From contig OX597838.1 in the NCBI GenBank assembly GCA_951406725.2, positions 62,001 to 126,000 on the forward strand: a stretch of 64,000 nt of DNA. The letters are read 5' to 3'. Source of the stretch: Octopus vulgaris. Taxonomy: Eukaryota. The notes beneath the pieces were generated by a model. That model had not been told where the DNA came from and did not search any database. It was given only the letters and a program-made list of their open reading frames with translations. This document shows positions 12,045-41,480 of this stretch, in pieces. A program made the translations under genes and the position numbers. The stretch's first letter is position 1. Each line of letters starts with the position of its first letter.

Positions 12045-12976
12045 ATGGCTGACAAGTCCATCAAACCTAATGAATTGAATCATTTGCAGCATAAGCTGAA
12101 ATGCCTTTTTAGGAATTCCGCCACACAATTGAACCAACTGAATAAAACTTTACTTTGGCAGAACTCGAACATGAAACGATTAAAGTTGGATGAAGCAGAG
12201 TTAAACTTCATGCTGTATCTTAGACAAAACTACAAACTTCCTCACAGTGAGCAGTTTCTTATGGACAACATGGTAGATGTGCAGAAACTGGAAAGAAAAT
12301 TATGCCGAGAAGTGATGAAACCAGAAGACTTAGCTTTATTTGATAGTATCATTAATAAACGAAAAAACAAAATCATATTGGAGCAAAAAGAGATACATAA
12401 CTTCCAAGAGATAGAGGAAGCCTTGAAGAAACAGATCAACATTATGGAAAATTCACTGGAAGTGAAAACACTTGAGTTCGGCCAAATTCGGTCGGAATTG
12501 GCAAAAATAAGAAATGAATTCTACAGCCTAAATCAACGATTGAGAATATTTGAAGATATTTTCTTCAATCTAGAGGAGAAACATGATAATCTCTTCTCAA
12601 GAATGCAAACAATATCCAAGGCCTGTGTAGATATTGGCGACAGGATAACAGAAGCTGACAAAAAAGTTGTTGGAATGAGGCAGTTAATTAAACTTCATGA
12701 ATATCACTTTAATTTCGAACTAAACGAAATAGACCGACAATCTGTGCAGCAGTGCAATTTCGAGAACTTTATGGCTGATGTTTCCAGAGAACGGGATTGG
12801 TATACTTTGGATAACAGCTTGAAGAAATTAGAGAAGGAACTAAATACACGATATGGACAGCTGAAGGAAGATCAAACAGCAATATCTGCAATAAAAGAAG
12901 CTGCAGTTCTTGACGATATTGATGTTATTGTAAAGGAGTTTCGCCTCAATGAGGAAAGCAATTTTGCACTCTTCAG
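12045..12976 (+). CDS. ODAD1/CCDC114/CCDC63-like coiled-coil protein, paralogue A, coding exon 1
   Basis: 311-codon open frame, helical/coiled-coil composition. Motifs INIMENSLEVKTLEF and DDIDVIVKEFRLNEESNFALFR resemble the outer-dynein-arm docking complex family (...LENRL...F, ...F...E..NFALF). Ends at AG|gtaaac donor (12976/12977), phase 2. Confidence 0.85.
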
Positions 12977-13599
12977 GTAAACCTTTTGTTTGTAAAAAAA
13001 TTATTGCAGTTGCATTTTTTCTTTGATTTAGCGATCATCTGAAGAATAAGAAAGCTATCAAAGAAGCATCAAGTCGGGGATCAAAGTTAAATTCATTTTA
13101 CTCTTATGATGCTCTTTCTTTTAACCATTGTGACCAAAACCATGCTAGAACATCAAACCCAGACTCCTAGATTATATGGGAAATGAATGATTGTCAGACA
13201 ATCATATATATTTCGTTTCAGTACAAAGTTTAAGATTAACTAACCTACACCAATGCCTCCTTGACTCCACTTCAGGAAACCACGTTGTATTTCTCGTACA
13301 ACATCCTGTACTAAACACTGATTACTCCTTCCCGCTGAGAATAAAATCCCTGTGAAATACCTGTTTATTACATACCCACATCGAAATTGAGAGATTCAAA
13401 TTGAGTGTCAACATCAGCAGACTGATGGGAATTGTAGGTCACAAGGCTTGTATTTTGGTTACCACATACATACACAAACATTTATGTATGTATATATGTG
13501 TGAATGTATATAAGTATATGTATGTATATATATATATGTATGTGTGCATGCGTGCGTGGGGGCGCGCGCGTGTTTGCAAGTATGCATATATATATGTCA

Positions 13600-15065
13600 G
13601 TTCAACTTATGTTCTTCAAACCGGTCGCTGACAAAGCACCAAGACTTTTTAAGTTAAGAGAGTTCTCGGTCTTTGTAAATACGTGGATGAGTTGGTGTGT
13701 TGGTTGAGCAGTCGATGCATACAGTCAAGCGTGTGCATCTATTTGCATAAAAGCGCAGATGGAGAATATTTGGAGCGTCTTACAAAGCTTCACTGGAACG
13801 TCTTACAAAGCTTACGAGGAGATTACATTTGGAGAATCCACATCAGTTCCTTTTGCTCTTTCTTCATGAAACAGAGTATTTCAAGGTTTTTGCTCATATT
13901 TGTTGATACATAACCTAATGCCTATGATGATAGCTACGAGTGAGAATTCATAGTAAGGCTACAAGAGCTGTTAGTTCCGCATTTATTGTCTATAAATGTT
14001 CTTTTTTCCCTGGAATTTTAACTGTATATTCACATCTGCTGGGCAGCTGTCCTCTTCAACAGTGCATGAGTTTTGTTCCCTGTCCCAAAGAACAATATCA
14101 GGTCTGTTATGTTGGCACCGAACTGATGTTTTTATTGGGATTTACCACCAGTATTCTTTGTTCTTAAAGGTGCGAATACCTGCTGGTTCTAACATTCCTT
14201 TGATGTGTACGTTAGCGTAGTCCTTCCTGCGGATAGCATTGTAAATAGTCTATGCAATTATATAATGCTTCAGGAGCAGATAGTATTTCGTATACATTTT
14301 GGTACAGCTGCTGTTATAGCAGAGCCGAGAATTTTCATCACAACTTAGAGGTTTGGTTGTATCTTTATACCTCTTATTTATCAAGCATTTAATATCTTTC
14401 TCCGGTTCCTGGATAACGAAAGCAAATCTTTTTAGGTCGAATGTAATATATCTATCAAAAGACCAAACAAAAAAGACTATTCTTCCTGCTAATACTGGTG
14501 TTATTCTGTAGCTTACAGGATATGAACTCATGCATTGCTTTTTGCTGGAATGATACCTGCTTCTCCTCCATGCTCCTGTATGTTAAGTCAGTTCAGCTTC
14601 CCTTGGTCTGCATGTACCAATTTCTTTCTTTATAGTTCAGCAGGTGTTGTCCGAGCGATACATTGCGACGACATTCAAAGGCTGTTTGGACTGACCTTAT
14701 GCCTCTATCGTCACCACTTTGTCTCACATAAATTCTATCAGTGTCGCTGTTAATGTGGAAGTTGCCAGTAGTGGTCAATACCTTTCTGGTTTTGATGTCC
14801 CGGCTGTGGATCTTGTCAAGTGTCTAGTCTATTATCTTAAATGTTGATACTAGCACTGGTACTGAAAAAGCACTGTGAGCTATGGTCTGGTTAAATGCAG
14901 ACAACTCTGCGTTTTATATTTTCTAGACTTTACAGAAGTACTTTTTTGTTATTCTGGCTTTAGTCACGGCATCAATGTATGCAACATTTTCATCTATTCT
15001 GCGCTACTTGTCACTTTCATCATTAGAGACAAGAGAGATTGACAAACCATTGATGTGCATGTTCT
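13600..15065 (-). mobile_element. R4/Dong-like non-LTR retrotransposon 3' part (RT thumb plus restriction-like endonuclease)
   Basis: DIKTRKVLTTTGNFHINSDTDRIYV..RGI; EYWW..I.TSV...NRPDIVLW..EQ. The 3' UTR is shared with 16845-17745. Confidence 0.75.
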
Positions 15066-15495
15066 CTGTCTGGTCGACAATCTTTCTTTGGTTGATGTAT
15101 GAGTATTTATCTCGCCCCAAATCCTTTCCTAGGTAATTTTTGGTCACATGGATCTCTTTGCTATGGGGATAAGTGGGGTCCATGGAACCATCAGCCAATT
15201 TTGTATATCGAGCTCAGCGCCCATTGATTTTTTTAAAACAACAATGGAGCAGACATTGTTGTCGAGTCTGAAAATAACATACGAAACAAGTCTAGTGCTC
15301 ATGAAGTAGTTATCTCCCCTGTCAGTGTATATAAGTGTGCGTTTATGCAGCTTTAAGTATTTTAACTTATTTCTAGCAATATATGTGCTATTCAGTAGCT
15401 TTATCATAATTAGGGACTATTAAAGTTTTCCTTTATATTGCACTTAGCTGCTTGTATTGAGCTTTAATGTATATATATATATATAATGTATGTGT

Positions 15496-39939: not shown

Positions 39940-40143
39940 GTTTCGAATTTTGGCAGAAGGTCAATAATTTCGTGATGGGTATAAGTCAATTCCAACGGCC
40001 CCAGAGCTCAACTGGTACTTATTTCATCGACCCCAAAAGGATGAAAGGCAAAGTCAACCCTGTTGGTGTTCGAATATAAAGTCGCAAGAAATGCTGCTAA
40101 GCATTTTTTTCCGATGAGGTGACGATTCTACCATCTCGCTGCC
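39940..40143 (-). mobile_element. Diverged tRNA-derived SINE
   Basis: CAACTGGTACTTATTTCATCGACCCC..AGGATGAAAGGCAAAGTC core. Confidence 0.7.
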
Positions 40144-41011
40144 TTAAATCACATCCTAGATATTGGCAGTATCTCTTAGCACTAGTTTTCTTGTCCCTGG
40201 TGATTTCTAAGATAGGTAATTAGTTTAGACTGCAACTTGCAGCTCGTACGGTATGCTGGACGGTTCATACGGTATGCTGGAGAGTTTGGTAAATTTGGGA
40301 GATATGATTTGTTTAGATCACCTAATTTAGATAAACAGGGAAGCACTATTATCCCTAGAGAGGACTTCACGGTCATTGAGGTGTTGCAGAATTTTTCTTT
40401 AATCATAGTTTTGATAAAAAGCGACCAATATCACAAACTGTCTAGCTGCAGGTTTGAAAACACATACTTGCGGCTGGTCAAGCCTGTACGTTTTACTACT
40501 GTCCATTGTGTGTTTTCCAAGGAGTTCCTCTCGTGAAATAGAAAATAGTGAGTAAAGCATTCACTTTTCGGATAAATAGCTTTCCTCCCGATGGCCTAGC
40601 ATCTAGTTGGAGACAACTAGAAGTAGGCTCATCCTCAGATTTTACATCTGAGTATTCTTCTAGACAGATAAAGAAAAACAAGAACTAGAGGTCCATCACT
40701 TCAAGCTGATCTTGGGGTTCCCTTGTTGTTAGTTAGGCATTGACCTAACATTGCTTCTCAGCCGTGCTTTTGGTAAGTATTTTTCGTTTCCTACTGGACA
40801 AGTCAAGTCTGGTGGAGGAGTTAGTTTGGTAACCGACGATCTAACTTCGCAACACGTCGTTACCAGTAGTATTCTTGAGTGAGTGTGTGTGTGTGTGTGT
40901 GTGTGTGTGTGTGTGTGTGTGTGTGTGTGTGTGTGTGTGTGTGTGTGTGTGTGTGTGTGTGTGTGCGTGCGTGTGCGTGTGTGTTTATAATCTTCTGTCC
41001 ATTTCTTTCAG

Positions 41012-41480
41012 GTTTCTGGTGGAAATTCACTCCGAAATTGGAAACCTCAATGCAGAAATGAACATTTTGCTTCCCATCATTGCTAAAAAACAACAGACAT
41101 ACCTGCATGACCATGCAGTGTTGCGTAGGACTCTGCATAATATTCAGAATTTGGACCAGGATGAGGTTGAAGCAGCCGACAGTGAGGCGGATGAAATAGA
41201 GCAGTCAAAGGAAGCTTTAATAGAATTTAAACTTGAACTGATAGAGTTAATGGAAGTCATAGGTAGCGATGTAAGCACCTTGAAAAATATCGATGATATT
41301 GTGTCCAACACGAAATTGATCAAGCAGTCTATAATAGATATCCATGAGAAAGTGAATCAATTGGTGCAACTAAAGATGTACTATGATCGACATAAACTGT
41401 CACAGAACGTGTATGATCCGAACGCATATCGAAAGCATCACACCCTGGTTTCAACTCCTACATTAACGTTCCTGGAGTGA
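41012..41480 (+). CDS. ODAD1/CCDC63-like paralogue B, coding exon 2
   Basis: Polypyrimidine acceptor atttctttcag|G at 41011/41012 gives NFSLFR-FLVEIHSEIG...LTFLE*. It aligns to exon 2 of paralogue A (LIELME, IID...K.NQ). The spliced CDS is 1404 nt (467 aa). AATAAA near 41724. Confidence 0.8.

What the first reader, a model, noticed from the sequence alone, without database searches (positions are those of the whole stretch)
12045..41480. Tandem, highly diverged, intron-poor ODAD1/CCDC63-like gene pair sharing one intron
Seen: 465-aa and 467-aa colinear proteins, about one-third identical by eye. Both are split at the same phase-2 position inside the Arg of NF(A/S)LFR and have a ~930-nt first coding exon. 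Established: ODAD1/CCDC63 are multi-exon axonemal outer-dynein-arm docking subunits. Inference: an intron-depleted, possibly retro-derived copy was tandemly duplicated and evolved rapidly, suggesting a lineage-specific and perhaps sperm-flagellar subfamily.
Basis: partly seen in the sequence, partly recalled or inferred. Interest (0 to 1): 0.7.

Follow-up and report, generated by a model that had tools for sequence, protein, structure and literature searches.

The report
Octopus retro-derived dynein-docking gene pair
Two neighbouring octopus genes encode very divergent copies of a protein that anchors dynein motors in cilia and sperm tails; they lack all five introns shared by their two multi-exon relatives and carry one intron of their own, so they likely descend from an old reverse-transcribed copy and likely serve a specialised, probably sperm, flagellum.

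Summary
A (12045-12976 + 18125-18590, 465 aa) and B (36398-37332 + 41012-41480, 467 aa) are 34.5% identical and share one GT-AG phase-2 intron. Both pass the Pfam ODAD1_CC cut-off. B's junction is joined in contigs of one public run; A's rests on sequence and gene models. Octopus annotations already hold both as uncharacterised proteins.

The same genome has two multi-exon ODAD1-family genes (C12, C1) sharing five intron positions. A and B lack all five, and their one coding intron sits where neither relative has one, so it is a gain, not a leftover. A third, unnamed lineage (X) ends its long reading frame at the same codon. Tree: (X,(A,B)) 100/100, sister to the C1 gene plus its cuttlefish relative 99/98, evolving 2-2.5 times faster than C1.

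Best reading: an early coleoid retrocopy of the C1-type gene gained an intron, then duplicated in tandem in octopods. It likely acts as a cell-type-specific, probably sperm, outer-dynein-arm docking subunit, parallel to vertebrate CCDC63 and insect wampa/wimpa/wompa. Tissue and binding are untested. A real but modest finding.

The parts
12045..12976 (+). Gene A, first coding exon (codons 1-310 plus 2 nt); spans four ancestral intron positions without interruption
   Evidence: Pfam ODAD1_CC 56.8 bits
12977..18124 (+). Gene A intron, 5,148 nt, GT..AG, phase 2 in the Arg of NFALFR; position absent from the multi-exon relatives
   Evidence: same junction in named O. vulgaris, O. sinensis and O. 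bimaculoides models; not checked with reads
18125..18590 (+). Gene A, second coding exon to the TAA stop; spans the fifth ancestral intron position
18672..18677 (+). AATAAA, candidate poly(A) signal of gene A
   Evidence: pattern match only
35957..36397 (+). Gene B 5' untranslated part of the long exon, behind a CAG acceptor, so likely preceded by an upstream non-coding exon (not located)
   Evidence: X17 contig 35954-36256 at depth 156 with 27 unmatched leading letters; sequence
36398..37332 (+). Gene B, first coding exon (codons 1-311 plus 2 nt)
   Evidence: Pfam ODAD1_CC 93.2 bits; X17 contig depth 309.5
37333..41011 (+). Gene B intron, 3,679 nt, GT..AG, phase 2, in an AG|GT exon context
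   Evidence: skipped in an X17 contig
41012..41480 (+). Gene B, second coding exon to the TGA stop
   Evidence: X17 contig 41010-41602 at depth 480.7
41724..41729 (+). AATAAA, candidate poly(A) signal of gene B
   Evidence: pattern match only

Best explanation
A and B are two intact, strongly diverged ODAD1/CCDC63-family genes that likely descend from one reverse-transcribed copy of the multi-exon C1-type gene, gained one new coding intron, were duplicated in tandem, and likely act as alternative ODAD1 subunits that dock outer dynein arms in one cell type, probably sperm. SHOWN: family membership; loss of 5 of 5 shared introns; one intron at a position absent from both multi-exon relatives; location on another chromosome-scale contig (C25, against C1 and C12); two copies only; splicing of B. 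INFERRED FROM THE TREE: the copy came from the C1-type lineage, before the octopus-cuttlefish split, and A and B split after lineage X but before Argonauta and Octopus parted. INFERRED BY ANALOGY: each protein forms the long coiled coil with the single ODAD3 found (C1:62.1 Mb) and holds outer dynein arms on the doublet microtubule in place of the canonical C12 protein. My split of the odds: retro origin plus intron gain about 0.8; still a docking subunit about 0.7; sperm-biased about 0.65.
For: Pfam ODAD1_CC over the cut-off of 27 bits: 117.8 bits for B and 66.1 for the O. sinensis A, full length. The top 5 of 6 PDB hits of the A/B profile are DC2, CCDC63, ODAD1, an ODA docking protein and CCDC114; none is ODAD3. 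C12 and C1 share introns at alignment columns 58/phase 2, 162/0, 223/2, 286/1 and 472/0; A and B have none of them, with no gap at 4 of the 5 sites, and carry only 340/2. All 19 of 19 short hits (up to 200 aa) among the 146 new proteins read through the motif; about 15 have unrelated, intron-like ends by eye. Arg at the split codon in 11 of 11 intron-poor rows against 2 of 76 others. Tree: intron-poor clade 100/100, sister to C1-type 99/98. AU rejects grouping with C12 (p 0.014) and nesting with octopod C1 to the exclusion of cuttlefish (p 0.027). A, B and C1 all end just after the PP motif and lack the acidic tail. Four-fold sites are saturated (23 of 32 differ), yet frames and lengths are kept across species. 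The predicted model is all-helical, mean pLDDT 79.7. Precedent for germline ODAD1 paralogues: PMC11779644, PMC11288676, PMC10002865 (passages), 10.1101/668012 (abstract).
Against: No tissue is known for the one run that shows B spliced; that run's kind is not on record and no DNA run was laid as a control. Conservation is much eroded: of the columns at least 70% identical in 71 canonical rows, A keeps 28 of 71 and B 36 of 71, against C1 48 of 73 and C12 62 of 72; the N-E-x-N part after the motif becomes V-E-x-H. The intron-poor stem is very long (1.5 changes per column), so its attachment to the also long C1 branch could be partly long-branch attraction, which the AU tests share. No poly(A) remnant or target-site repeat was looked for or expected at this age. 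The predicted model has pTM 0.30, and its one significant fold hit has rmsd 173 A, so the fold search adds little.
Confidence: 0.5

Rival explanations
1. Same origin, but the proteins no longer dock dynein arms. They act as assembly factors (as Chlamydomonas ODA5, a DC2 paralogue, does) or have a new coiled-coil role in spermatid or cilium building.
For: Only 28 and 36 of 71 strongly conserved columns are kept; root-to-tip lengths of 3.3-3.7 against 1.5 for C1; acidic tail lost. PMC8754002 (passage) names ODA5 as a DC2 paralogue that is an assembly factor. PMC10002865 (passage) reports that mouse CCDC63 knockouts have short flagella but intact outer arms.
Against: The whole coiled-coil region aligns end to end with DC2, CCDC63 and ODAD1 almost without gaps. 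The E-x-x-L, F, L-R and N-F-x-L-F positions are kept; 47-49 of 71 conserved columns are similar.
Confidence: 0.2
2. Docking subunits, but for a somatic ciliated cell type (statocyst, olfactory or skin cilia) or for one zone of an axoneme, with C1 serving sperm.
For: The genome already has a second, multi-exon paralogue (C1) that could fill the sperm role. No tissue label was available. Insect families hold both somatic and germline paralogues (PMC11288676 passages).
Against: Fast evolution, repeated duplication and retro origin are typical of male-germline genes (PMC5470649 passage; general knowledge). In moths it is the germline copy that duplicated again.
Confidence: 0.15
3. Not a retrocopy: a DNA-level duplicate that lost its introns one by one or by recombination with a cDNA, and later moved.
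For: No poly(A) tail or target-site duplication can be shown. One former intron site (column 286) lies at a 7-residue gap. The genes do have introns (coding, and likely 5' UTR in B).
Against: All 5 shared introns are gone, including the most 5' one, with no intermediate state in A, B or (for the four positions its fragment covers) X. The parent-type gene keeps 7 introns on another contig. No multi-exon relic was found in C25:1-60000 or 126001-266000.
Confidence: 0.15

Closest known systems
ODAD1/CCDC114, Chlamydomonas DC2 (Pfam PF21773)
   Same: Domain over cut-off; colinear coiled-coil region with the NFxLF motif.
   Different: About 22% identical to the octopus canonical gene (C12); about 20 N-terminal residues and the acidic C-terminal tail missing; one coding intron instead of seven or more.
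Vertebrate CCDC63, the sperm replacement of ODAD1 (PMC11779644, passages)
   Same: An extra ODAD1 paralogue beside a canonical gene; second-best PDB hit (9fqr, E 9.6e-10).
   Different: Not the same clade: hits with the CCDC63-type motif form a separate group in the FastTree. Sperm restriction is known for CCDC63 and only inferred here.
Insect wampa (Drosophila) and wimpa/wompa (moths) (10.1101/668012 abstract; PMC11288676 passages)
   Same: Lineage-specific ODAD1 duplicates; in moths a second duplication gives two germline paralogues, as proposed here for A and B.
   Different: Independent origin (inferred; no named insect rows in my tree). I did not check whether the insect genes are retro-derived. 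Octopus has four ODAD1-side genes (C12, C1, A, B).
Retrogenes with secondarily gained introns (PMC5470649, passages)
   Same: Parental introns lost, parent elsewhere, new introns present.
   Different: The cases in the passages read are intronization of exon sequence or new flanking exons. Here the protein alignment has no gap at the new intron, which points to insertion at an AG|G site.

Membership tests
ODAD1/CCDC63/DC2 family | Pfam ODAD1_CC over the curated cut-off | tested here: met
   93.2 and 56.8 bits for the first exons; 117.8 and 66.1 bits for full-length B and the O. sinensis A; cut-off 27
ODAD1/CCDC63/DC2 family | Closer to ODAD1/DC2 than to ODAD3/DC1 | tested here: met
   Top 5 of 6 PDB hits are DC2/CCDC63/ODAD1-type chains and none is named ODAD3; a separate ODAD3 gene lies at C1:62.1 Mb
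ODAD1/CCDC63/DC2 family | Long all-helical coiled-coil architecture | tested here: met
   Predicted model of B: helices 7-63, 68-88, 94-250, 257-288, 293-395, 412-440; pLDDT 79.7, pTM 0.30
ODAD1/CCDC63/DC2 family | Retention of the strongly conserved residues | tested here: inconclusive
   NFxLF and E kept; only 28 (A) and 36 (B) of 71 columns identical, against 62 of 72 for C12
ODAD1/CCDC63/DC2 family | Acidic C-terminal tail with the RPL(T/S) motif seen in canonical rows | tested here: not met
   A, B and C1 stop just after the PP motif; C12 has a matching exon. Common in the family, but not part of the Pfam definition
ODAD1/CCDC63/DC2 family | Pairs with ODAD3 and docks outer dynein arms | not tested
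   No full-length octopus ODAD3 was available to the folding tool; no complex job was sent
Retrogene | Parental introns absent | tested here: met
   5 of 5 positions shared by C12 and C1 are absent; no gap at 4 of 5
Retrogene | Multi-exon parent-type gene at an unlinked locus | tested here: met
   C1:98.76-98.78 Mb, 8 coding exons, sister group in the tree
Retrogene | Poly(A) remnant and target-site duplication | not tested
   Not searched; four-fold sites are already saturated between A and B, so such marks would not be expected to survive
Retrogene | No shared flanking genes with the parent | not tested
   Neighbours on C25 seen (SLC6-like, transferrin-like); neighbours of C1 not examined
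Sperm-specific ODAD1 paralogue (CCDC63, wampa kind) | Testis- or sperm-restricted expression | not testable with these tools
   Run names and tissues are coded; the gene ids are in no paper text searched nor in the one supplement searched
Vertebrate CCDC63 orthologue | Groups with vertebrate CCDC63 | tested here: not met
   FastTree only: rows with the NFARFTY motif of 9fqr CCDC63 (for example P0072) form a separate clade; these rows are unnamed

The most novel reading that the evidence does not exclude
Coleoid cephalopods built a sperm-specific dynein-docking subunit from a retrocopy that then gained a coding intron by insertion. Octopods doubled it, so one ODAD3 can pair with four different ODAD1 partners, and A and B form distinct docking complexes in different zones of the sperm tail or in different sperm or cell types, a molluscan parallel to the moth wimpa/wompa pair.
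Probability: 0.15. Interest if true: 0.65.

Novelty: new member of a known kind. Interest (0 to 1): 0.36.

Why it matters
Sperm-specific replacement of ODAD1 is known in mammals and insects, and why it happens is stated to be unclear (PMC11779644, passage). An independent, more extreme case in cephalopods would give a third comparison: four ODAD1-side genes, two of them only 19-25% identical to the other two. It also offers a datable intron gain in the coding region of a likely retrogene, with no coding sequence lost. Both proteins are already in databases as uncharacterised models (one mislabelled centromere-associated protein E). The new part is their identity as a subfamily and their history, not their existence.

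Tried and rejected
Further array members: none in the window, genome-wide with B exon 1, B exon 2, A exon 1, X or the Pfam family (the tool scores only the best candidates), or in C25:1-60000 and 126001-266000 (C25:60001-62000 not examined). ODAD3 identity of A and B: rejected. A second ODAD3 copy: none found with one 39-aa exon, a weak search. Origin from the canonical C12 gene: rejected by AU, p 0.014. Octopod-only origin from C1: rejected by AU, p 0.027. Expression: no listed holder is on record as RNA, which is no evidence either way. Runs X5, X1 and X7 showed essentially no cover of B's coding exons; this is not used as evidence. Read support for A's junction was not obtained. dN/dS: no orthologous coding DNA was available; A against B is saturated; X17 differs from the window at three listed coding sites (1 replacement, 2 silent), too few to use. 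Fold search: 1 of 15 matches at E below 0.001 (a Chlamydomonas doublet chain, 8glv_Cc, unnamed, rmsd 173 A), not informative. A complex prediction was not sent: ODAD3 was available only as short exons, and an A:B pair could pass simply by likeness to ODAD1:ODAD3. Literature: no paper for octopus + CCDC63, cephalopod + sperm + outer dynein arm + gene duplication or the four LOC ids; none of the 6 listed for ODAD1/CCDC63/mollus concerns this subfamily by title or abstract start. The O. sinensis gonad paper PMC11202624 has no dynein, CCDC or flagellum term in its text and no id match in its one held supplement; that file may not hold the full gene table, so the blank says nothing. Subscription papers and bioRxiv supplements were not searched and could mention these genes. 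Earlier scan notes: none.
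Full report
1. The observation. The two gene models are in the sequence exactly as described. A is 12045-12976 joined to 18125-18590 (465 aa) and B is 36398-37332 joined to 41012-41480 (467 aa), neither with an internal stop. Both introns are GT..AG, phase 2, inside the Arg codon of NF(A/S)LFR, 5,148 and 3,679 nt long. The proteins are identical at 158 of 458 aligned positions; the score is 619.5 against a best of 54.5 in 200 shuffles. A self-comparison of the window lists no DNA match between the two coding regions, and 23 of 32 four-fold sites differ, so the duplication is old.

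2. They are real genes. Spliced B is letter for letter the named Octopus vulgaris protein CAI9740457.1, and CAI9740456.1 is A without its first 42 residues, so the window is most likely O. vulgaris. Orthologues with the same length and junction are annotated in O. sinensis (A 99.6%, B 99.8%), O. bimaculoides (A 79%, B 94%) and, for B, Argonauta hians (58%). Of four runs laid on 33800-42000, X17 has contigs over 35954-36256, 36339-37330 and 41010-41602 at depths 156, 310 and 481, unique intron pieces at 5-10, and a joint that skips exactly the intron. The run's kind is not on record and I laid no DNA control, but no processed copy was found in the assembly, so a spliced RNA is the plain reading. 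The first contig begins at a CAG acceptor (35955-35956) with 27 unmatched letters before it, so B likely has an upstream non-coding exon. A's junction was not checked with reads.

3. Family. Both first exons pass the Pfam ODAD1_CC cut-off, and the full-length proteins cover nearly the whole profile. A profile of A and B orthologues finds 6 PDB sequences at E below 0.1; the top five are Chlamydomonas DC2, CCDC63, ODAD1, an ODA docking protein and CCDC114. A separate gene at C1:62.1 Mb matches ODAD3, and one short search found no second copy of it. The predicted structure of B is a chain of long helices (pLDDT 79.7, pTM 0.30); the fold search was uninformative.

4. Gene structure against the relatives. 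The Pfam search of the genome gave 11 matches at four places: the pair on C25, and multi-exon genes on C12, C1:98.8 Mb and C1:62.1 Mb. I rebuilt eight coding exons each for C12 and C1:98.8 Mb from splice signals and a profile (my models, and C12's 3' end is incomplete). They share five intron positions and phases (columns 58/2, 162/0, 223/2, 286/1, 472/0). A and B have none of these, with no gap at four of the five sites, and their single coding intron (340/2) falls inside an exon of both relatives. Of the 146 new proteins in the 50% library search, 19 are 200 aa or shorter; all 19 read through the motif and about 15 have unrelated ends that look like intron read-through (judged by eye, organisms unknown). 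So the uninterrupted motif is the ancestral state and the A/B intron is a gain. The split codon is Arg in 11 of 11 intron-poor rows and in 2 of 76 others, mostly Asn; B shows an AG|GT context. No residues are missing at the site, which argues for insertion rather than intronization.

5. History. The library search returned, after A and B orthologues, one more colinear protein: P0013, 311 aa, 23-28% identical to A and B, ending on the same FR, with relatives P0159, P0160 and P0163. These records are unnamed, and this lineage X has no counterpart in the genome beyond A and B. A 34-row maximum-likelihood tree (LG+C20+F+G4, 498 columns; rows picked by me from 87 used in a FastTree) gives (X,(A,B)) at 100/100, A plus B at 99/96, and this clade as sister to C1 plus Argonauta C1 plus a cuttlefish protein at 99/98, next to scallop and Lingula proteins with weaker support. 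AU tests reject joining the clade to C12 (p 0.014) and joining it to octopod C1 without the cuttlefish protein (p 0.027). A, B and C1 also share the loss of the acidic tail. Root-to-tip lengths from their common node are 3.7 (A), 3.3 (B), 2.9 (X), 1.5 (C1) and 0.9 (cuttlefish). Most of the excess is on the old stems: between Octopus and Argonauta B keeps 58% and C1 63%. Long branches may pull these groups together, and the tests share that risk. If the tree is right, the copy predates the octopus-cuttlefish split, X is likely its decapodiform form (inference), and the tandem duplication happened in the octopod stem.

6. How it likely works. ODAD1-family proteins are subunits of the complex that attaches outer dynein arms to doublet microtubules at 24-nm intervals (PMC8754002, passages); that they do so as a long coiled coil with ODAD3 is partly from the CCDC63/CCDC151 legend in PMC11779644 and partly recalled. 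A and B keep the full coiled-coil span and the NFxLF motif, so I expect them to replace ODAD1 in this complex in one cell type. Sperm is the best guess because CCDC63 replaces ODAD1 in mammalian sperm (PMC11779644, passages), wampa is needed for male fertility in Drosophila (10.1101/668012, abstract), the moth germline copy duplicated again (PMC11288676, passages), and young retrogenes are often testis-specific (PMC5470649, passages). Against this: only 28 and 36 of 71 strongly conserved columns survive, DC2 paralogues can be assembly factors, and no tissue data were available.

7. Novelty and verdict. The genes are annotated but uncharacterised, and four searches found no paper on them (the library lacks most subscription papers). 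Lineage-specific ODAD1 duplicates and retrogenes with new introns are both known kinds. What is added is a cephalopod subfamily with a clear retro signature, a new coding intron and a two-step history. A cilia or cephalopod specialist would find it worth noting, not startling. New member of a known kind; interest 0.36.

Noticed in passing
window 57961-60675 (+): Intact 904-aa open frame with no Pfam match at E 0.001; by recalled motifs (YRDD-like and GIY-YIG-like stretches) it looks like a Penelope-type retroelement. Flanked by an inverted repeat, 57750-57928 against 61222-61400 (97%).
   Followed up: partly
window 46107-47653: A 1.55-kb stretch that matches its own reverse complement at 90%; smaller ones at 7612-8372, 20649-20801, 42013-42169 and 42432-42690. 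Probably foldback or miniature inverted-repeat elements.
   Followed up: no
window 39982-40106 (inside B's intron): A short repeat with summed contig depth in the thousands to tens of thousands in all four runs laid; likely a very abundant SINE-like element.
   Followed up: no
window 13464-14517 and 16723-17757 (inside A's intron): Two copies of a roughly 1-kb sequence, 70% alike.
   Followed up: no
window 9331-10374, 32932-33573, 62673-63473, 49359-49856, 4523-5323: Fragments of LINE-type reverse transcriptases (three Pfam RVT_1 hits) and a Pif1 helicase piece; the frame at 4523-5323 looks integrase-like by eye but had no Pfam match.
   Followed up: partly
G000:C1:98756060-98783204 (loci L019-L022): A second multi-exon ODAD1-family gene, itself divergent (26% identical to C12) and without the acidic tail; the named Argonauta model lacks its third exon and the O. 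bimaculoides model replaces its fifth with an unrelated stretch, so these public models may be wrong.
   Followed up: partly
G000:C25:163434-163907 and 246218-246859 (loci L049, L058): Nearest recognisable downstream genes: an SLC6-family transporter exon and a transferrin-like exon, both on the minus strand. The pair lies only 74-103 kb from the start of the 45.6-Mb contig.
   Followed up: partly
protein P0011 (O. bimaculoides orthologue of A): Named centromere-associated protein E by its source, a coiled-coil misannotation.
   Followed up: yes
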